64,000 nucleotides of DNA from Steroidobacteraceae bacterium. GTDB lineage: Bacteria > Pseudomonadota > Gammaproteobacteria > Steroidobacterales > Steroidobacteraceae. The stretch spans positions 31,706 through 95,705 of the forward strand of contig JAWLAE010000006.1 of the NCBI GenBank assembly GCA_041395625.1, read 5' to 3'. Position 1 is the first letter of the stretch; each line of letters begins with the position of its first letter. Below are positions 56,822 through 64,000 of the stretch, piece after piece. The notes beneath the pieces were generated by a model. The model did not search any database. It saw only the letters and a list, made by a program, of their open reading frames with translations, and had not been told where the DNA came from. A program made the position numbers and the translations under genes.

Positions 56822-58285
56822 ATGCGTATTCTCGAAGAAGCATTGACCTTCGACGATGTCCTATTAGTCCCAGCTTACTCGGAGGTGCTGCCACGCGAGG
56901 TCGACCTCGCGACGCGCCTCACGCGCGGCATCACCCTCAACCTGCCGGTCGTGTCGGCCGCCATGGATACGGTGACCGAGGCACGCCTCGCCATCACCAT
57001 CGCGCAGGAAGGCGGCATTGGCATCGTGCACAAGAGCCTGACGATCGAAGGTCAGGCCCGCGAAGTGGCGCGCGTCAAGAAGTTCGAGAGCGGGGTGATC
57101 AAGGACCCGATCACCGTGCCGCCCGAGACGACGATCCGCCAAGTGCTCGATCTCACCAAGGCGCGTGGTATCTCCGGTGTGCCGGTCGTGCAGGGCAGGC
57201 AGGTGGTCGGCATCGTCACGCATCGCGATCTGCGTTTCGAGGAACAACTCGACGCCCCGGTGTCGACGGTGATGACACCGAAAGAGCGCTTGATCACCGT
57301 GCTCGAGAATGCCCCCAAAGAAGAAGTCCTGCTGCTGCTGCACAAACACCGCATCGAGAAGGTGTTAGTGATCAGAGGCGACATGGAGTTGATGGGCATG
57401 ATCACCGTCAAGGATTTCCAGAAAGCGAAGGAATTTCCGCGTGCCTGCAAAGACCCCTCTGGCCGGCTGCGCGTCGGTGCGGCCGTCGGCACGACGCCTG
57501 ATACCCTCGACCGGGTTGCCGCGCTGCGCGACGCGGGAGTCGATGTCGTGGTGGTCGATACCGCCCATGGTCATTCCCGCGGCGTGCTCGAAACGGTGGC
57601 GCGCATCAAGGCCAGGTACTCGGATCTGCAGGTGATCGGCGGCAATATCGCGACCGCCGAGGCGGCGCGCGATCTCGTCAAGGCCGGCGCCGATGCCGTC
57701 AAGGTGGGTATTGGTCCGGGTTCGATCTGCACCACCCGCATCGTCGCCGGTGTCGGCGTGCCGCAGATCTCCGCCGTTGCCAATGTGGCGGAAGCTATCC
57801 GCGATGAGATTCCGGTGATCGCCGACGGCGGTATACGTTTCTCGGGCGATCTGGCCAAAGCCATCGTCGCCGGTGCCAACGCCGTCATGATCGGCAGCAT
57901 GTTCGCCGGCACCGAGGAGTCGCCGGGCAAGGTCGAGCTGTATCAGGGTGCGTCGTACAAGGCCTATCGCGGAATGGGCTCGTTGGGCGCCATGGGCGAG
58001 CGGCATGGTTCGGCCGATCGTTACTTCCAGGACGCTGCCACCGAACTCGAGAAACTGGTGCCGGAAGGCGTCGAAGGGCGCGTGCCCTATAAAGGCAGTC
58101 TGGTGTCCATCCTGCATCAGCTGGCCGGCGGCTTGCGCGCCGCGATGGGCTACACCGGCAGCAACAGCATCGAGCAGATGCGCAAGCGGCCGCAGTTCGT
58201 TCGCGTGACGAGCGCTGGCATGCGCGAAAGCCACGTCCACGATGTGGCGATCACCAAGGAAGCGCCTAACTACCGCGTCTCATGA
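56822..58285 (+). CDS. guaB: IMP dehydrogenase
   Basis: [20 protein letters not shown], a CBS pair, [11 protein letters not shown] (catalytic Cys loop) and GGIRFSGD. Confidence 0.97.
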
Positions 58286-59871
58286 GTGGTGTGCCGCAAG
58301 CAGACATACACGCCGACCGGATCCTGATACTCGATTTCGGCGCGCAGTACACGCAGTTGATCGCCCGGCGCGTGCGTGAGAGCGGCGTCTACTGCGAGAT
58401 CCACCCCTGGGACATCAGTGACGCAGACGTGCGGGCATTCAAGCCACGCGGCATCGTCCTGTCCGGCGGACCCGAGTCCGTCAACGCCGCCGCGCCGCCG
58501 CGGGCGCCCGAATTGGTGTTTGCGCTGGGCGTGCCCGTGCTCGGCATCTGCTATGGCATGCAAACCATGGCGCAGCAATTGGGTGGTCAGGTGGAGGCGG
58601 CCGAGCACCGCGAGTTCGGCTACGCCGAGGTATCGCTGCAGGGTGCCTGCCGGTTGTTCGACGGCCTGGCCGATCGTCGCGACGCGGCAGGCCGTGCCGT
58701 GCTCGACGTGTGGATGAGTCATGGCGACCGCGTCGCGCAGTTGCCGCAAGGTTTCATTGCCGTCGGTGCCAGCAGCAATGCGCCCCTCGCAGCGATCGCC
58801 GACGAAGCGCGTCGTTTCTACGCCGTGCAGTTCCATCCCGAAGTGACGCACACGCTGCAGGGCGCGCGCCTGCTCGAGCGCTTCGTGCGCGAGATCTGCG
58901 GTTGTGCGGCCCTCTGGAGTGTCGGCAACATCATCGACGACGCGATCGCGCGGGTGCGGGCTCAAGTTGGCACCGGGCGCGTGTTGTTAGGTTTGTCGGG
59001 CGGCGTCGATTCGTCGGTGGTCGCGGCGCTCCTGCATCGGGCCATCGGTGATCAGTTGGTCTGCGTGTTCGTCGATCACGGGCTGTTGCGCCTGGGCGAG
59101 GGCGATCAGGTGATGCGGACCTTCGCCGACAACCTCGGCGTGCGAGTGATTCGGGTCGATGCCGAACAGCGCTGCCTGGCTGCGCTCGGCGGCGTGGCCG
59201 ACCCCGAGCAGAAGCGCAAGATCATCGGCAAACTTTTCATCGAGGTGTTCGACGAGGAGTCCGGCAAGCTGCAGGGGATCGACTACCTCGCGCAGGGCAC
59301 CATCTACCCCGATGTCATCGAGTCTGCCGGCAGCAAGACCGGCAAAGCGCATGTCATCAAGTCGCATCACAACGTCGGTGGGCTGCCGGCCAACATGCGC
59401 ATGCAGTTGGTCGAGCCGCTACGCGAGTTGTTCAAGGACGAGGTGCGCAAGCTCGGCGTCGAGCTCGGACTACCGCGCGAGATGGTTTATCGGCATCCGT
59501 TTCCGGGCCCCGGACTCGGGGTGCGGATCCTGGGTGAAGTACGCAAAGAGTTCGCCGATCTGCTGCGCCGTGCCGACGCGATATTCATCGAGGAGCTGCG
59601 CCGCCACGAGCTCTACGACAAGACCAGCCAGGCTTTCGCCGTGTTCCTGCCCGTGCGCTCGGTCGGCGTGATGGGCGATGGTCGACGATACGATTACGTG
59701 GTCGCGTTGCGCGCGGTGGAGACCATCGACTTCATGACAGCCCACTGGGCGCGCTTGCCGTACGATTTCCTCGATCTCGTCTCACGCCGGATCGTCAACG
59801 AGATCGATGGCGTGTCGCGCGTGGTATATGACGTGTCGGGCAAGCCGCCAGCGACGATTGAGTGGGAGTGA
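58282..59871 (+). CDS. guaA: GMP synthase (glutamine-hydrolysing)
   Basis: The GATase domain has [20 protein letters not shown] and GICYGMQ. The ATP-PPase has [11 protein letters not shown]. The C-terminal dimerisation domain ends KPPATIEWE. Confidence 0.97.
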
Positions 59872-59880
59872 TTAGGGGTG

Positions 59881-59908
59881 TTTCGCGGTCTATCGGCACC
59901 CCGCGAAA
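59881..59908 (+). terminator. hairpin downstream of guaA (tttcgcgg-N12-ccgcgaaa), possible terminator and/or part of the att region
   Basis: An 8-bp perfect inverted repeat 10 nt after the guaA stop with no clear U-tract, so the terminator assignment is weak. Confidence 0.3.
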
Positions 59909-59986
59909 TCAGAGCCTAACTCACTGAATAAAAACAAATAAGCTCTCCGAACCTTTCGCCATCTATCGGCCTCAAGCGGGACACTC

Positions 59987-60158
59987 TGACGGTAAAACTG
60001 ACGGTATGGGTTTCCTGCACCCCAAGAGACCCCGATTGTTACCGTCATAAAGTCGACGGTAATGCAGACAAGAAAACTGTGGAATTGCAGGGGAAAAATA
60101 GCAGAAACCCCTGATTTCCGCGGTGAGGATTGAGGGAATTGGGCTTCTGACGGTAAAA
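59987..60158. repeat. five copies of a GACGGTA(A) motif (four direct, one inverted) upstream of int; candidate integrase arm-type sites
   Basis: tgacggtaaaac (59987), tgacggtatggg (59999), ttaccgtcat (60039, inverted), cgacggtaatg (60054) and tgacggtaaaatt (60148), all read directly from the sequence. Confidence 0.5.
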
Positions 60159-60187
60159 TTGGGGCCGCGCCAGAACGGGGGCCCGCC

Positions 60188-61444
60188 ATGCTTACCGACA
60201 TCGCCCTGAAGAAGCTCAAGCCCCGGGAAAAGCCGTACAAAGTGACGGACCGGGATGGGATGTACGTGACGGTCTCGCCGGCCGGGACGATCACGTTCCG
60301 GTTCGACTACCGGATCAGCAACAGGCGCGAGACCCTCACCCTGGGGCGCTACGGCCCGGCGGGGCTATCCCTGTCCGCCGCCCGCGAGAAGTGCATCGCT
60401 GCCCGGAACACGCTCGCCCAGGGGCACTCACCGGCCCGGGTGAAGCAGCGGGAGAAGCGCCAGCTGGCAGCCGCCGAGACCCTGGGCCAGTTCGCCACGA
60501 AGTGGCTGGACGAGGGCCCGATGGCGGAGAGCACCCGCACCATGCGCAAGGGCATCTACCGGCGAGAGGTCGAACCCGAACTCTCGAACCGCCTTCTGCC
60601 GGAGGTGTCGTCGGACGACGTGCGCATCCTGTGCCTCAAGATCAAGAACCGGGGGTCGCCCGCGACGGCCATCCACGTCCGGGACATCGTGAAGGGCATC
60701 TACAACTTCGCGAACCTGCACGGGCACAAGGTCCCGAACCCGGCCAACGAGGTGGCGCCGACATCCATTGCCACGTTCAAGCCGCGCGAACGGGCGCTCA
60801 GCCCCGAGGAGATCCGGATCGCGTTCACGCTGATCGACAAGGTGTCGTTCGCCCATATCCACCGCCTGGCGCTGCGGATGATCCTGCTGACGCTCGTGCG
60901 CAAAAGCGAACTGGCGAAGGCGATGTGGAGCGAGATCGACTTCGACAAGGGCGTCTGGACGATCCCGAAGGAGCGCATGAAGGCACGCCGGCCGCACAGC
61001 GTCTATCTGTCGCGCCAGGCGCTGGAGATCTTCACCGCGCTGAAGCTGATGGCCGGAAGCTCGCCCTACGTATTCCCTTCCCGCTATGACGCCGATGTTC
61101 ACATCGCGGCGAGCACGCTCAACCGGGTCACGTCGCAGATCGCCGAGAAGGCCAAGGCGGAGAATCTGCCGCTGGAGATGTTCACGGTTCACGACCTGCG
61201 CCGCACCGGGTCGACGATCCTCAACGAGATGGGCTTCAACCGCGACTGGATCGAGAAGGCGCTTGCGCACGAGCGCAATGAGTCTTCGCGGGGCACGTAC
61301 AACCGCGCCCAGTACGCCGAGCAGCGGCGGCACATGCTTCAGGAATGGGCGGACATGATCGACGCGTGGGTGGCGGGCAAGACGCACACGCCAGTACTGC
61401 TGCCGTCGTCGATGAAGGTGATCGCAGCGCAGGCGCTAACCTGA
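60188..61444 (+). CDS. int: tyrosine-type site-specific integrase (P4-like, N-terminal arm-binding DUF4102-type domain)
   Basis: MLTDIALKKLKPREKPYKVTDRDGMYVTVSPAGTITFRFDYR matches the P4-integrase N-terminal domain. The catalytic domain carries LTLVRKSEL (Arg), HDLRRTGST (HxxR) and HERNESSRGTYNRAQY (His...Tyr). Confidence 0.9.
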   Translation: MLTDIALKKLKPREKPYKVTDRDGMYVTVSPAGTITFRFDYRISNRRETLTLGRYGPAGLSLSAAREKCIAARNTLAQGHSPARVKQREKRQLAAAETLGQFATKWLDEGPMAESTRTMRKGIYRREVEPELSNRLLPEVSSDDVRILCLKIKNRGSPATAIHVRDIVKGIYNFANLHGHKVPNPANEVAPTSIATFKPRERALSPEEIRIAFTLIDKVSFAHIHRLALRMILLTLVRKSELAKAMWSEIDFDKGVWTIPKERMKARRPHSVYLSRQALEIFTALKLMAGSSPYVFPSRYDADVHIAASTLNRVTSQIAEKAKAENLPLEMFTVHDLRRTGSTILNEMGFNRDWIEKALAHERNESSRGTYNRAQYAEQRRHMLQEWADMIDAWVAGKTHTPVLLPSSMKVIAAQALT

Positions 61445-61449
61445 CTACC

Positions 61450-61833
61450 TCATACGAAATGATTGAAGCTCGGTCGTCGCCCCGAATCCTCGCACCACAC
61501 GACGTGGCCCTTCTTAATCCAGAAGTGCGCGTAAGTTCCTGCGGTTTGGCGAACCGACGGATGCACGGTTGGGCGTCCTAGAATATCGCGTGAGATGGCC
61601 CAGCGCGGACGGTGATTCGCCTGAAGCGACAACTGGATGAGTTCGCGGGCGTCGCTCGGACACAGGAAATACGCCCACTTCTGGAAACCCGGCCCGCCGA
61701 CAACATAAATGATTCCCGGAGCCATATCGGCTTGCAGTGGATGGTCCGCGACGACGCGCATGTAGAAGTCTGGCTTCTCAGCAACGCCAAGCCAAACAAA
61801 AAGCGCCCGAACAGCTGAACGAATCTCATCCAT
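61450..61833 (-). CDS. DUF6527-like small protein, last gene of the Ubl/E2/E1 operon
   Basis: 127 aa from the ATG at 61833, 2 nt after the E1 stop. The core ...KWAYFLCPSDARELIQLSL...RPRWAIS...GRPTVHPSVRQ...YAHFWIKKGHVVW resembles the DUF6527 pattern as I recall it (CxCGCG...W.l...PSI...C.SH.WI..G.v.W), but most of the Cys positions are substituted. Confidence 0.55.
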   Translation of the reverse strand: MDEIRSAVRALFVWLGVAEKPDFYMRVVADHPLQADMAPGIIYVVGGPGFQKWAYFLCPSDARELIQLSLQANHRPRWAISRDILGRPTVHPSVRQTAGTYAHFWIKKGHVVWCEDSGRRPSFNHFV

Positions 61834-61835
61834 CC

Positions 61836-63257
61836 CTAGTCCATCCTGCCTAGGAACGGATCTACGTCTCCGGCACCCCATAGCGCACTGGAACCACAAA
61901 TCTGACAGCTTGCCCTGGACGTGTGCCCTGGTCGCCGGTCCTCTCCGTAGTGGAATTTCCGCACGCGGTTGGCTGAGGCTCCCTCCGGGCCCCTGAAACC
62001 TTGCAGGCGGTGAATCAGCTCATTCACCGCCATGCAGGCGGTCTCCGTTGTGAAGGTCACCACCGCGGGGCTCGGATTGCCTGCGCCGACAACGTACGAC
62101 TCGGATTTCCGACGTTCATATTCCTCAGGATTCTTTCGACGCATTGTCTCGGAGCGGGCTGCTTCCGGATCTATGACATCCCGGCAAAGCAGGCAAGTGT
62201 GGTTCGGACCCAAGACGGTGACGCGCCCATCGAGGGCTCGGATTGTCTGTGACCCCTCCGGCGCAGGCTCTATGGCCAGGCCGATGTCGAAAACAGGAGT
62301 GAGGTAGTAGTACGCGAAGCGGTTCAGAAAGAGTCGTCCCTCATGATCATCTGTGCAGCCGAAGATGACATCAGAGGCTCGAAGTACGTCTCGGCACGCC
62401 GGATCTGCGACCCACGCTTCGATCGGCACAACCCGGGAGCCCAGTCCCAATTCTGTTATCGAGCGCGCTACCACCTCGACCTTCGGGCGCATTGCGTCAG
62501 CGTCCGCTTGGCGGGAGCCGTGAAGCCGATTCAGATTTGTTACATCAACAACATCGTTGTCGATGAGCGAGATTTGGCCAACGCCGAGCCGTGCAAGCAG
62601 CATCGCAACCGCGCTTCCAGTGCCGCCGCATCCCACGATGGCCACGCGTAGCCGACGCAAGTCTTGATTGAGTGCTTGGCCAAACGCCAGAGCCTGCCTA
62701 TGAAAGGCAGGAATGGGGAGTGTGGCGGCGCGGTCAGGGTAGTGCAGGGCTAGACGCTCGCCAGCAACGCGCACCATGCGCAGCGGCGCGGCGCCATTCG
62801 GTAATGGAGTTAGCCAAGTGCGACCTGTGAGGAGACCATCAGCGGTCAGCACAAGGCTGAGCATCTTGGTTCCGACGCCATTGCGGTTTACAGCCAGTTG
62901 TACGAGATCAGGCTCGTTGGCGTCATCCTGCGCTGAGAAGAAGCATTGGCCTGCACCATGGCTATGCACGATTCCTATCTCTTGGCCGTTGGCGTTGGCT
63001 TGCCTCAATGCCGACACGAATGACGCCGTCTGCCATGTGATGAGGTTCGCTGTTCGCTCAATGACATGTTCATCCGGTACAGGGATGATTCGTGAACTAA
63101 GGAACTTGGTGTGCGCTTGGCGATCCCACGGGTCATTGCGAACCACCGCCCGGTTGCAGAGCATGTAGGCGGCATGTTCGCAGCCATCGTCACGAATCAG
63201 GTGAGACTTCAGCTGCTCGAAGTGTTCGTGCTGCAACGTCAAGCTGTAGGTTGTCAT
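61836..63257 (-). CDS. JAB/MPN (JAMM) metalloprotease - E1-like (ThiF/MoeB-family) adenylyltransferase fusion
   Basis: The N-terminal domain has Glu27 (GCEHAAY) and an intact JAMM motif H98-S-H100-x7-S108-x2-D111 (IVHSHGAGQCFFSAQD, nt 62925-62966). The C-terminal domain has the Rossmann nucleotide loop VAIVGCGGTGS, NLNRL, FGCTDD and paired CxxC motifs (C355/C358, C451/C454), as in E1/ThiF enzymes. Confidence 0.85.
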   Translation of the reverse strand: MTTYSLTLQHEHFEQLKSHLIRDDGCEHAAYMLCNRAVVRNDPWDRQAHTKFLSSRIIPVPDEHVIERTANLITWQTASFVSALRQANANGQEIGIVHSHGAGQCFFSAQDDANEPDLVQLAVNRNGVGTKMLSLVLTADGLLTGRTWLTPLPNGAAPLRMVRVAGERLALHYPDRAATLPIPAFHRQALAFGQALNQDLRRLRVAIVGCGGTGSAVAMLLARLGVGQISLIDNDVVDVTNLNRLHGSRQADADAMRPKVEVVARSITELGLGSRVVPIEAWVADPACRDVLRASDVIFGCTDDHEGRLFLNRFAYYYLTPVFDIGLAIEPAPEGSQTIRALDGRVTVLGPNHTCLLCRDVIDPEAARSETMRRKNPEEYERRKSESYVVGAGNPSPAVVTFTTETACMAVNELIHRLQGFRGPEGASANRVRKFHYGEDRRPGHTSRASCQICGSSALWGAGDVDPFLGRMD

Positions 63258-63637
63258 GCGGCAGCCTTCTCAAGGGCTTCTTCGACGCGCTTGATCATTG
63301 TCCAGATGCCGTCTGTTCCGGGGCGCCACTCCGGGTTGTGACGTGACCATCGCTGCCAACGCCGGCCGCCGAATTCCAGTGGCTGGTCAGCCGCTCGGGG
63401 ATATGTGTTGGTGGTAGTCAGCCGTACCCAGGGTTCGAGATAGAACATGTCCGGGGCGATATCGGGATATCCGCCGGGGAGCAGGATCAGGACGTCCGCG
63501 GAAGTGGCGTCAAACCGGCCACATGGCAGCGGCCGGCCCCTGAGGATGATGGCTTTGCTCCCATTCTCCTCAGTGGCTTCGAATGCAATGCCCTTCGAAG
63601 CAAGGTAGTCGCGATCTGCAGGCGGAAGAGTGATCAT
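63254..63637 (-). CDS. E2/UBC-like protein lacking a cysteine at the expected catalytic position
   Basis: 127 aa. The layout is UBC-like: a beta-meander, then LLPGGYPDIAPDMFY (equivalent to the FPxxYPxxPP flap), then a C-terminal W-x-P...helix (EWRPGTDGIWTMIKRVEEAL). The only Cys (C39) is in the N-terminal sheet. The stop overlaps the E1 start (ATGA at 63254-63257). Confidence 0.65.
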   Translation of the reverse strand: MITLPPADRDYLASKGIAFEATEENGSKAIILRGRPLPCGRFDATSADVLILLPGGYPDIAPDMFYLEPWVRLTTTNTYPRAADQPLEFGGRRWQRWSRHNPEWRPGTDGIWTMIKRVEEALEKAAA

Positions 63638-63641
63638 GTGG

Positions 63642-63902
63642 TTACCCTTCAGTCGTCGTCTTCTTCCCCGTGAAGAACCGTTCCGTCCCCTTCTCGGTGA
63701 CATCAATCTGGTCATCGTCTTTCACGAGGCGATCTTCCGGACCGCGGACATCCTGCCATGCGTCGTAGGCAGCACGATCAACTCCGGCAAGCGACTTGAT
63801 CTCAAGGCCGGTGATGGTCGCCTTGGGCCAGTCGTGCGGTTTTTGGTCGACGATGATTTTGTACGTCGTGTGATGGGGCTGCTTCTGCTGTTCGTCACTC
63901 AT
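63642..63902 (-). CDS. small ubiquitin-like (multiubiquitin-family beta-grasp) protein ending in a free C-terminal glycine
   Basis: 86 aa from the ATG at 63902, preceded by AAGGAG at 8-nt spacing. YKIIVDQKPHDWPKATITGLEIKSLAG... resembles the prokaryotic multiubiquitin domain. The C-terminus is ...KKTTTEG followed by the stop. It is the first gene of the operon, 4 nt upstream of the E2-like gene. Confidence 0.65.
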   Translation of the reverse strand: MSDEQQKQPHHTTYKIIVDQKPHDWPKATITGLEIKSLAGVDRAAYDAWQDVRGPEDRLVKDDDQIDVTEKGTERFFTGKKTTTEG

Positions 63903-64000
63903 TCGAGTCACTCCTTGCCGGGTGGATTCAAAGCCGACCGGCGGAACGCCAATCCGCCGATCCGCTAAAAAGCGTATCGCAGGCCGCAGGTAGTTGCAAG

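What the first reader, a model, noticed from the sequence alone, without database searches (positions are those of the whole stretch)
61836..63257. JAB-E1 fusion with an intact JAMM site but no cysteine in the E1 crossover-loop region
The full E...HxH-x7-S-xxD JAMM signature is present, so the protease half should be active. However, the Ubl already ends in Gly, so processing may not be needed and the JAB domain may instead act as a deconjugase or editing domain. In the E1 half, residues 305-354 contain no Cys. This is the stretch between the TDD motif and the first CxxC zinc motif, where ThiF/MoeB/E1 enzymes carry the loop cysteine. That suggests an adenylation-only or non-thioester mechanism, consistent with the Cys-less E2.
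Basis: partly seen in the sequence, partly recalled or inferred. Interest (0 to 1): 0.65.

Follow-up and report, generated by a model that had tools for sequence, protein, structure and literature searches.

The report
Type I Bub ubiquitin-like conjugation operon
This gene encodes the peptidase-E1 fusion (BubCD) of a bacterial ubiquitin-like "Bub" operon, a recently described system that works through a tyrosine and a serine instead of cysteines, so the missing cysteine is real but is already explained.

Summary
The ORF 61836..63257 (-) is real. It is the third of four tightly coupled genes: Ubl (Multi_ubiq), E2 (Prok-E2_E), JAB-E1 fusion and DUF6527/BubE. They sit on an integrase-bearing island next to guaA, and capH/capP regulators lie just past the window end. 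This is a Type I Bub (6E.1) operon, as characterised by Ye, Gong, Chambers and Corbett (bioRxiv 10.1101/2024.11.21.623953; PDB 9ea4).

The JAMM site (E27, H98, H100, S108, D111) is present and invariant in relatives. Residues 305-354 do lack Cys, but they are not the crossover loop. They form a helix and a beta-hairpin. The true loop lies after the first CxxC, at about 362-395. It also lacks Cys and carries an invariant Tyr388, which aligns with the Citrobacter residue Y370. C301 matches the non-catalytic Cys of the MoeB/ThiF 'DCTDN' motif. The E2 has Ser98/His100 at the catalytic position.

The likely mechanism is therefore oxyester relay (Tyr to Ser to Lys), not adenylation only.

One open point remains. 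Here the Ubl and E2 are unfused and the Ubl ends natively in Gly, as in 53 of 79 classifiable related loci. The JAB catalytic residues are nevertheless fully conserved, so the domain probably does more than pre-processing.

Verdict: a new member of a known kind, of low to moderate interest.

The parts
63642..63902 (-). bubA: ubiquitin-like protein of 86 aa with a single beta-grasp domain. It ends natively in ...KKTTTEG, followed by a TAA stop. An AAGGAG Shine-Dalgarno sequence lies upstream of the ATG.
   Evidence: Pfam Multi_ubiq 9.6e-21. Junction sequence read directly. The gene call on the identical contig L001 is 86 aa. PDB hits to solved multi-ubiquitin beta-grasp proteins 8u38, 9d5b and 9cd2.
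63254..63637 (-). bubB: E2-like protein of 127 aa. It starts 4 nt after the bubA stop, in a different reading frame, so it is not a Ubl-E2 fusion. Catalytic-position Ser98 with His100 (the WSRH motif, 63338..63346) and Asp63.
   Evidence: Pfam Prok-E2_E 2.2e-47. PDB 9eae Citrobacter BubB 5.9e-10, with WSRH aligned to S333/H335. S98 and H100 are invariant in 81/81 and D63 in 77/81.
61836..63257 (-). bubCD: JAB/JAMM peptidase fused to an E1 adenylation domain, 473 aa. This is the gene of the finding. Its ATG overlaps the bubB stop codon (ATGA).
   Evidence: Pfam Prok-JAB + ThiF. PDB 9ea4 Citrobacter BubCD 2.4e-44 over residues 7-423. AF2 model with pLDDT 83 and pTM 0.87; best fold match 9ea4, TM 0.79/0.83.
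62748..63257 (-). JAB/JAMM peptidase domain (residues about 1-170). Catalytic residues: E27 (63177..63179) and H98-S-H100-x7-S108-x2-D111 (62925..62966).
   Evidence: Motif read directly. These residues align with Citrobacter E28/H91/H93/D104. They are invariant in 120 homologues and in 80-81 of 81 sequences.
61839..62705 (-). E1 adenylation domain (residues 185-473). It contains the GCGGTGS nucleotide loop (209-215), R244 (equivalent to Citrobacter R227) and C301-T-D-D304, which carries the Mg-binding Asp.
   Evidence: Alignments to BubCD, MoeB and ThiF. R244, T302, D303 and D304 are invariant in 81/81.
62073..62174 (-). Crossover loop (residues about 362-395). It has no Cys. Tyr388 (62094..62096) is invariant and is the predicted E1 nucleophile.
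   Evidence: Aligned to Citrobacter crossover loop 347-377. Y388 aligns with Y370 and with the Phe of the Y370F mutant chain 9eav. Y388 is present in 120/120 and 81/81 sequences. In the model, two short helices are followed by a low-pLDDT coil at 386-394.
62184..62195 (-). First CxxC (C355/C358) of a ThiF/MoeB-type four-Cys zinc site. The second CxxC (C451/C454) is at 61896..61907.
   Evidence: All four Cys are invariant in 80-81 of 81 sequences. Citrobacter BubCD has T and D at the first pair.
61450..61833 (-). bubE: DUF6527 serine peptidase of 127 aa. It starts 2 nt after the bubCD stop. The dyad is Ser93 (61555..61557) and His103 (61525..61527). Only 2 of the 4 usual zinc-finger Cys are kept.
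   Evidence: Pfam DUF6527 2e-19; the family is named BubE. S93 and H103 are present in 78/79 and match the spacing of Citrobacter S92/H102.
60188..61444 (+). P4-type tyrosine integrase marking the edge of the island, directly downstream of guaA (58282..59871).
   Evidence: Pfam Phage_integrase, Arm-DNA-bind_3 and Phage_int_M. NCBIfam PRK09692 2.1e-43. No tRNA gene nearby.

Best explanation
The gene is bubCD of a Type I Bub (bacterial ubiquitination-like, formerly '6E.1/DUF6527') operon. The operon is carried on an integrase-bearing island inserted beside guaA and is preceded by the DNA-damage-responsive regulators CapH and CapP.

Proposed mechanism, by homology to the characterised Citrobacter system:
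1. The E1 half adenylates the C-terminal Gly86 of the Ubl BubA, using ATP, R244 and D303/D304.
2. Tyr388 on the flexible crossover loop attacks the acyl-adenylate to give a Ubl~Tyr oxyester.
3. The Ubl passes to Ser98 of the E2 BubB, assisted by His100 and Asp63, as a Ubl~Ser oxyester.
4. The Ubl is then transferred to lysines of target proteins.
5. BubE (Ser93/His103 dyad) removes the Ubl again.

Shown here: gene content, domain identities, operon coupling, and presence and conservation of every catalytic residue.
Inferred from the published homologue: the chemistry.

The JAB half cleaves Ubl-E2 pre-proteins after the TTEG motif in fused relatives. In this operon the Ubl is made mature, so I infer that the conserved JAMM site acts on something else with the same Ubl tail, such as conjugates, auto-conjugates or rare tailed forms.
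For: - All four Pfam families of the Bub operon are present in the published order. Junctions are 4 nt, an ATGA overlap and 2 nt.
- The best solved relatives are Citrobacter BubCD (9ea4, E 2.4e-44, full length) and BubB (9eae, 5.9e-10). The AF2 model matches 9ea4 at TM 0.79/0.83.
- Y388 aligns with Y370, and with the Phe of the Y370F chain 9eav. It is invariant in 120 homologues and in all 81 sequences (window plus 80 genome loci) spanning 45-78% identity.
- Only 2 of 81 sequences have any Cys in the loop.
- E2 S98/H100 are invariant in 81/81, and BubE S93/H103 in 78/79.
- In the paper, Y370F, S333A/H335A and R227A abolish or reduce conjugation, and BubE S92A/H102A restore conjugates.
- capH (PADLOC 2.9e-8) and capP (3.5e-9) lie upstream on contig L001, which is 100% identical to the window over 2655 nt. 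The paper reports this association for 31% of Bub operons.
- The paper's Table S1 lists about 31 Type I operons with separate Ubl and E2 genes, for example in Tistrella mobilis. A Tistrella mobilis E1 is a 66%-identical homologue here.
Against: - No biochemistry exists for this protein or its clade. It shares only about 27% (structure-based) identity with the characterised Citrobacter enzyme.
- In the paper a covalent Ubl~Tyr intermediate was not trapped directly. A BubA-BubCD adduct still formed with Y370F, so a nucleophilic role for the Tyr is inferred from loss of product.
- The paper's text defines Type I by a Ubl-E2 fusion, which this operon lacks.
- This BubE lacks two of the four zinc-finger Cys.
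- No antiphage phenotype has yet been found for any Bub operon.
Confidence: 0.8

Rival explanations
1. Adenylation-only E1. BubCD only makes Ubl-AMP. The E2 Ser98, or a target amine, attacks the adenylate directly. Tyr388 has a gating or positioning role and forms no covalent intermediate.
For: - There is no Cys in the loop.
- The published work did not trap a Ubl~Tyr species, and a BubA-BubCD adduct persisted with Y370F.
- ThiF/MoeB-type relatives can work from the adenylate (established knowledge of MoeB).
Against: - Tyr388 is invariant across 45-100% identity.
- Y370F abolishes product in vitro and in cells, whereas the adenylation mutant R227A only reduces it.
- Crystal structures place Y370 next to the E2 Ser/His, and AF2 places it 3.7 A from the AMP phosphate.
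Confidence: 0.13
2. In this native-Gly, unfused clade the JAB domain is a catalytic leftover or a purely structural Ubl-docking module with no substrate.
For: - The Ubl needs no C-terminal trimming here.
- The paper suggests the JAB domain may act 'primarily or solely' in pre-protein cleavage, and conjugates accumulate despite a wild-type JAB domain.
Against: - The E/H/H/S/D residues are intact in 52 of 53 native-Gly loci and in 120 of 120 close homologues.
- The JAB:E1 identity ratio is the same in native-Gly (48/65%), tailed (40/60%) and fused (44/59%) classes. dN is 0.18-0.39 against saturated dS, so there is no sign of relaxed constraint.
- The general-base Glu is not needed for folding.
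Confidence: 0.2
3. A hidden catalytic cysteine elsewhere (C301, C408 or a CxxC Cys) forms a conventional thioester.
For: C301 is invariant (81/81), and C408 is fairly common (109/120 among close homologues).
Against: - C301 aligns with the Cys of MoeB/ThiF 'DCTDN', a buried strand residue just before the Mg-binding Asp, and with Citrobacter 'CCVD'.
- C408 falls to 46/81 in the wider set and is Ser in Citrobacter.
- C355, C358, C451 and C454 form the classical ThiF/MoeB zinc site.
Confidence: 0.02
4. A sulfur-carrier (ThiS/MoaD-type) cofactor pathway rather than protein conjugation.
For: The NCBIfam hits are to ThiF/MoeB models. JGI annotates homologues as 'molybdopterin/thiamine biosynthesis adenylyltransferase'.
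Against: - All those hits fall far below the curated cut-offs (77 vs 275 bits and similar).
- The operon also has an E2, a JAB domain and a DUF6527 peptidase, lies on a mobile island and has CapH/CapP regulators.
- No sulfurtransferase or rhodanese domain is present.
Confidence: 0.02

Closest known systems
Citrobacter sp. RHBSTW-00271 Type I Bub operon (BubAB, BubCD, BubE; PDB 9ea4, 9ea5, 9ea8, 9eae, 9eav; Ye et al., bioRxiv 10.1101/2024.11.21.623953)
   Same: - Same JAB-E1 fusion architecture and fold (TM 0.79/0.83).
- Same JAMM residues.
- Same Cys-free crossover loop with the conserved Tyr.
- Same E2 Ser/His/Asp.
- Same DUF6527 Ser/His dyad.
- Same gene order, and located on a mobile island.
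   Different: - Here the Ubl and E2 are separate genes, and the Ubl ends natively in Gly.
- The Ubl has one beta-grasp domain (86 aa) rather than three.
- The E1 keeps a four-Cys zinc site that Citrobacter lacks at the first CxxC.
- BubE has lost two of the four zinc-finger Cys.
- Sequence identity is only about 27-35%.
Unfused Type I Bub operons listed in Table S1 of the same paper (e.g. Tistrella mobilis, Hyphomicrobium denitrificans, Rhizobium phaseoli; 'DUB+E1 fusion' only)
   Same: Identical four-gene layout (Ubl, E2, JAB-E1, DUF6527), often with CapH/CapP. A Tistrella mobilis E1 is 66% identical to the window protein.
   Different: None in architecture. These operons were catalogued but not studied biochemically, and the role of the JAB domain in them was not discussed.
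Type II Bub (6E.2): BubA, BubBD (E2-E1 fusion), BubE
   Same: Cys-free E1 loop with a conserved Tyr, an E2 Ser, and a DUF6527 peptidase.
   Different: Type II has the E2 fused to the E1, no JAB domain, and a Lys+His (not His+Asp) partner for the E2 Ser.
Bil (BilABCD) and CBASS Cap2/Cap3 bacterial conjugation systems
   Same: E1/E2/JAB logic, placement in defence islands, and a Ubl or substrate C-terminal Gly.
   Different: Those systems use catalytic cysteines and thioesters. Bil E1 has IAD-AAD-CYS domains. Cap2 is an E2-E1 fusion with a separate JAB protein (Cap3). PADLOC E1-E2 models match only the Rossmann segment here.
ThiF / MoeB
   Same: Homodimer-type adenylation fold, the CTDD/CTDN motif and a four-Cys zinc site.
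   Different: They have no JAB domain, no E2 partner and no conserved loop Tyr. Scores are far below the equivalog cut-offs.

Membership tests
Type I Bub (6E.1) operon | JAB/JAMM peptidase fused N-terminally to an E1 adenylation domain (BubCD) | tested here: met
   Pfam Prok-JAB + ThiF in one 473-aa ORF. Full-length match to PDB 9ea4.
Type I Bub (6E.1) operon | E1 crossover loop without Cys and with an invariant Tyr (Citrobacter Y370) | tested here: met
   Loop 362-395 has no Cys. Y388 aligns with Y370 and is present in 81/81 and 120/120 sequences.
Type I Bub (6E.1) operon | E2 (Prok-E2_E fold) with Ser in place of the catalytic Cys, accompanied by His and Asp | tested here: met
   S98/H100 align with S333/H335. 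D63 lies in the DMFY motif. Conservation is 81/81, 81/81 and 77/81.
Type I Bub (6E.1) operon | DUF6527 (BubE) gene with a Ser-His dyad | tested here: met
   PF20137 2e-19. S93/H103 have the same +10 spacing as S92/H102 and are present in 78/79.
Type I Bub (6E.1) operon | BubE C4 zinc finger (Citrobacter C57/C59/C61/C99) | tested here: not met
   The window BubE has only C58 and C114. Positions 62 and 100 are Ala and Thr, where most relatives have Cys. The paper describes this as a conserved feature, not as a defining one.
Type I Bub (6E.1) operon | Ubl encoded as a fusion to the E2 (BubAB), as stated in the paper's text | tested here: not met
   A TAA stop follows Gly86, then 4 nt and a frame change before the E2 ATG. 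However, the paper's own Table S1 files about 31 unfused operons under Type I, and 68 of 79 classifiable related loci are unfused.
Type I Bub (6E.1) operon | Ubl beta-grasp with a conserved C-terminal Gly | tested here: met
   Multi_ubiq 9.6e-21. The TTEG end is shared by 114/120 homologues and is also the junction motif in fused forms.
Type I Bub (6E.1) operon | ATP-dependent Ubl-target conjugation through oxyester intermediates | not testable with these tools
   Needs biochemistry. Known only for the Citrobacter and E. coli ZDHYS365 systems.
Canonical thioester E1 (UBA1/UBA5/ThiF-type loop Cys) | Conserved Cys in the crossover loop or in a CYS domain inserted in it | tested here: not met
   No Cys in 359-405 of the window. 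Only 2/81 and 3/120 relatives have one, at non-homologous positions.
ThiF/MoeB sulfur-carrier adenylyltransferases | Score above the NCBIfam equivalog cut-off | tested here: not met
   The best hit is 77 bits against a cut-off of 275 for TIGR02356. MoeB models score 58-68 bits against cut-offs of 266-449.

The most novel reading that the evidence does not exclude
In the large unfused clade, whose Ubl is translated already ending in Gly, the fully conserved JAMM site of BubCD is not a maturation protease. It is instead a second, E1-tethered deconjugase or editing peptidase, for example one that clears Ubl auto-conjugates from BubB/BubCD or mis-targeted conjugates. This would contradict the published suggestion that the Bub JAB domain acts 'primarily or solely' in pre-protein cleavage. 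It may also compensate for a BubE that has lost its zinc finger in this sub-clade.
Probability: 0.35. Interest if true: 0.4.

Novelty: new member of a known kind. Interest (0 to 1): 0.25.

Why it matters
The cysteine-free E1/E2 pair is biologically remarkable, but it was published in 2024 with crystal structures and mutants. This locus mainly confirms how widespread and conserved the Tyr/Ser chemistry is. It is seen across Proteobacteria, Cyanobacteria, Bacteroidota, Chloroflexota, Planctomycetota and other phyla, in loci with 45-78% E1 identity.

The useful residue is evolutionary. Most relatives of this E1 have an unfused Ubl that needs no processing, yet they keep a perfect JAMM site. This makes the second function of the JAB domain directly testable with this operon, whose Ubl is small and has a single domain.

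Tried and rejected
- PADLOC (2023) has no Bub models. It gave only weak Cap2-type 'E1-E2' hits on the Rossmann segment.
- NCBIfam gave only sub-threshold ThiF/MoeB hits, and nothing for the Ubl, E2 or BubE.
- Sequence alignments to MoeB and ThiF stop at residue 329 or earlier (MoeB 329; ThiF 322-323), even with a 43-sequence profile. The position of the loop relative to MoeB C187 and ThiF C184 therefore rests on the BubCD alignment, the model and textbook knowledge.
- dN/dS could not be computed properly because dS is saturated. Only dN and the domain identity ratios were usable.
- No tRNA gene lies at the integrase, so a tRNA-targeted island was rejected.
- The sigma-70 scan found no convincing promoter between capP and bubA. 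The only hit is upstream of capH, and the count is no better than in shuffled sequence.
- No solved structure matches BubE.
- C301, C408 and the CxxC cysteines were considered as hidden nucleophiles and rejected.
- A frameshifted or pseudogenised BubAB fusion was considered and rejected, because most relatives show the same native stop after TTEG.
Full report
**What is there**

The ORF at 61836..63257 on the minus strand is real and encodes 473 aa. Pfam finds a Prok-JAB domain (residues 11-119, 6.5e-9) and a ThiF domain (186-440, 1.1e-41).

It is the third gene of a compact minus-strand operon:
- bubA, a Multi_ubiq ubiquitin-like protein (63642..63902, 86 aa).
- bubB, a Prok-E2_E protein (63254..63637, 127 aa).
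- The JAB-E1 fusion (61836..63257).
- A DUF6527 protein (61450..61833, 127 aa).

The junctions are a 4-nt gap, an ATGA overlap and a 2-nt gap. This indicates translational coupling. Gene calls on a 100% identical metagenome contig (L001) give the same four products.

**Context**

A P4-type tyrosine integrase (60188..61444, +) lies between the operon and guaA (58282..59871). No tRNA gene is nearby.

Contig L001 is identical to the window over 2655 nt and continues past the window end. It carries an HTH protein (PADLOC capH 2.9e-8), a Peptidase_M78 protein with an HEYGH motif (PADLOC capP 3.5e-9) and an AlpA-like fragment.

The sequence occurs in wastewater and activated-sludge metagenomes.

**Identity**

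This gene set is the 'Bub' (bacterial ubiquitination-like; earlier '6E' or 'DUF6527') operon described by Ye, Gong, Chambers and Corbett (bioRxiv 10.1101/2024.11.21.623953).
- The best solved relative of the finding's protein is Citrobacter BubCD (PDB 9ea4, E 2.4e-44, residues 7-423 aligned).
- The best solved relative of the E2 is Citrobacter BubB (9eae, 5.9e-10).
- An AlphaFold2 model built on 43 homologues (pLDDT 83, pTM 0.87) matches 9ea4 best, at TM 0.79/0.83 over the full length. ThiF, MoeB, MccB and UBA5 follow for the E1 half only.

**Checking the observation**

These residues align with the Citrobacter catalytic residues E28, H91, H93 and D104.

Residues 305-354 do contain no cysteine. 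They are not the crossover loop, however.
- In the model they form a helix (305-317) and a beta-hairpin (322-331, 339-349). This probably corresponds to the hairpin that buttresses the Ubl in the Citrobacter structure; that correspondence was not shown by alignment.
- From established knowledge of these structures, the loop cysteine of ThiF (C184) and MoeB (C187) lies about twelve residues after the first zinc CxxC, not before it.
- By alignment to the Citrobacter crossover loop (347-377), the window's loop is about 362-395, directly after C355-L-L-C358.
- In the model this stretch forms two short helices followed by a low-confidence coil at 386-394. The paper describes the Citrobacter loop in the same way.
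- The loop also has no cysteine.

**The residue that replaces the cysteine**

Tyr388 (in SESYVVG) aligns with Citrobacter Y370. It also aligns with the phenylalanine in the Y370F mutant chain 9eav, which fixes the register.

Conservation was measured in the 120 closest database homologues (63-100% identity) and in 81 sequences: the window plus 80 genome loci from many phyla (45-78% identity).
- Y388 is invariant.
- R244 (equivalent to Citrobacter R227), T302-D303-D304 and the four zinc cysteines are invariant.
- The JAMM residues are invariant apart from one Glu-to-Lys change.
- Only 2 of the 81 sequences, and 3 of 120 homologues, have any cysteine in the loop, at non-homologous positions.

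It aligns with the cysteine of the MoeB/ThiF 'DCTDN' strand just before the Mg-binding Asp, which is a non-catalytic position. C408 is Ser in Citrobacter and is present in only 46 of the 81 sequences.

**The partner proteins**

- The E2 has one non-conserved cysteine (C39). It carries Ser98 and His100 (WSRH) at the positions of Citrobacter S333 and H335, plus Asp63. Conservation is 81/81, 81/81 and 77/81.
- BubE keeps Ser93 and His103 (78/79), with the same spacing as the published S92/H102 dyad.

**Mechanism**

By homology, the most likely mechanism is the published oxyester relay:
1. The E1 half adenylates Ubl Gly86.
2. The Ubl is transferred to Tyr388.
3. It is then transferred to E2 Ser98.
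4. It is then transferred to target lysines.
5. BubE reverses the conjugation.

In the Citrobacter system, Y370F and S333A/H335A abolish conjugation, R227A reduces it, and BubE S92A/H102A restore conjugates.

The chemistry is inferred here, not shown. Even in the paper the Tyr ester was not trapped directly, and an E1-Ubl adduct persisted with Y370F. An 'adenylation-only' model with a non-covalent role for the Tyr therefore keeps some probability, which I put at about 0.13.

**Where this locus differs from the characterised example**

[quoted passage not shown] Here the Ubl stops at TTEG-TAA, and the E2 starts 4 nt later in another frame.

This is not an error or a pseudogene.
- 114 of 120 Ubl homologues end in ...TEG.
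- Of the 79 related loci that could be classified, 53 have a native Gly end, 15 have a short 2-7-residue tail after TEG, and 11 are fused with a TTEG|xxxxLP junction.
- The paper's own Table S1 lists about 31 unfused operons as Type I.

The architecture is therefore already catalogued.

**The open point: what the JAB domain does here**

The paper does not address what the JAB domain does when there is nothing to mature.
- The five JAMM residues are intact in 52 of 53 native-Gly loci.
- The JAB:E1 identity ratio is the same in the native-Gly, tailed and fused classes (48/65, 40/60 and 44/59%).
- dN of the JAB domain is 0.18-0.39 against saturated dS.

There is thus no sign of decay. It sits awkwardly with the paper's suggestion that the domain acts 'primarily or solely' in pre-protein cleavage. 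The point is untested.

**Other differences**

- The E1 keeps a four-Cys zinc site that Citrobacter lacks at the first CxxC.
- The Ubl has a single beta-grasp domain.
- The window's BubE has lost two of the four cysteines that most relatives conserve. Among the 78 classified loci with a BubE hit, the C58/C62/C100/C114 pattern is CCCC in 53. The window has C, A, T, C.

**Verdict**

The ORF, the JAMM site and the Gly end are right. The loop was misplaced, but the true loop is also Cys-free.
'Non-thioester' is right; 'adenylation-only' is unlikely.
- The feature is the hallmark of a published family, so this is a new member of a known kind.
- Interest is low to moderate. It rests on the unresolved role of the JAB domain in the native-Gly clade.

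Noticed in passing
61450..61833 (-): The BubE (DUF6527) protein keeps the Ser93/His103 dyad but has only two (C58, C114) of the four Cys that are conserved in most relatives. C62 is Ala and C100 is Thr. About 20 related loci show the same loss, and all belong to the clade closest to the window. The published C4 zinc finger is therefore probably absent here.
   Followed up: partly
61896..61907 and 62184..62195 (-): The E1 half keeps a ThiF/MoeB-type four-Cys site (C355/C358/C451/C454). The four Cys are invariant or nearly so in all 81 sequences (C454 in 80 of 81). The crystallised Citrobacter BubCD has Thr and Asp at the first pair.
   Followed up: partly
59872..61444; L001:1-1316: The operon sits on an island whose P4-type integrase directly follows guaA, with no tRNA gene. 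The identical contig L001 shows capP, capH and an AlpA-like fragment just beyond the window end. The far end of the island and its att repeats were not seen.
   Followed up: partly
63903..64000 (-); L001:1317-1453: The 137-nt leader between capP and bubA contains a short inverted repeat (GGCGGA...TCCGCC) upstream of the AAGGAG ribosome-binding site. The consensus scan found no convincing sigma-70 promoter there. The only promoter-like site lies upstream of capH, so capH-capP-bubABCDE may be one transcript.
   Followed up: partly
L058:3384-4700; L019, L020, L078: Some related loci look damaged. In L058 the E1 is truncated and runs into the BubE C-terminus. In L019 and L020 BubE is fragmentary. 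L078 gave no Ubl or BubE hit.
   Followed up: no
63254..63715 (-): The mechanical ORF list gives a 153-aa E2 that starts inside bubA. The real start is the ATG at 63637 (127 aa), as in all homologue gene calls. Likewise, bubA starts at the ATG at 63902, not at the listed GTG at 63911.
   Followed up: yes
61450..63911: The operon sequence is found nearly word for word in many wastewater, sludge and biofilter metagenome runs from 2014 to 2024. The host is therefore a common treatment-plant bacterium. The closest genome locus is a Gammaproteobacteria MAG with 78% E1 identity.
   Followed up: partly
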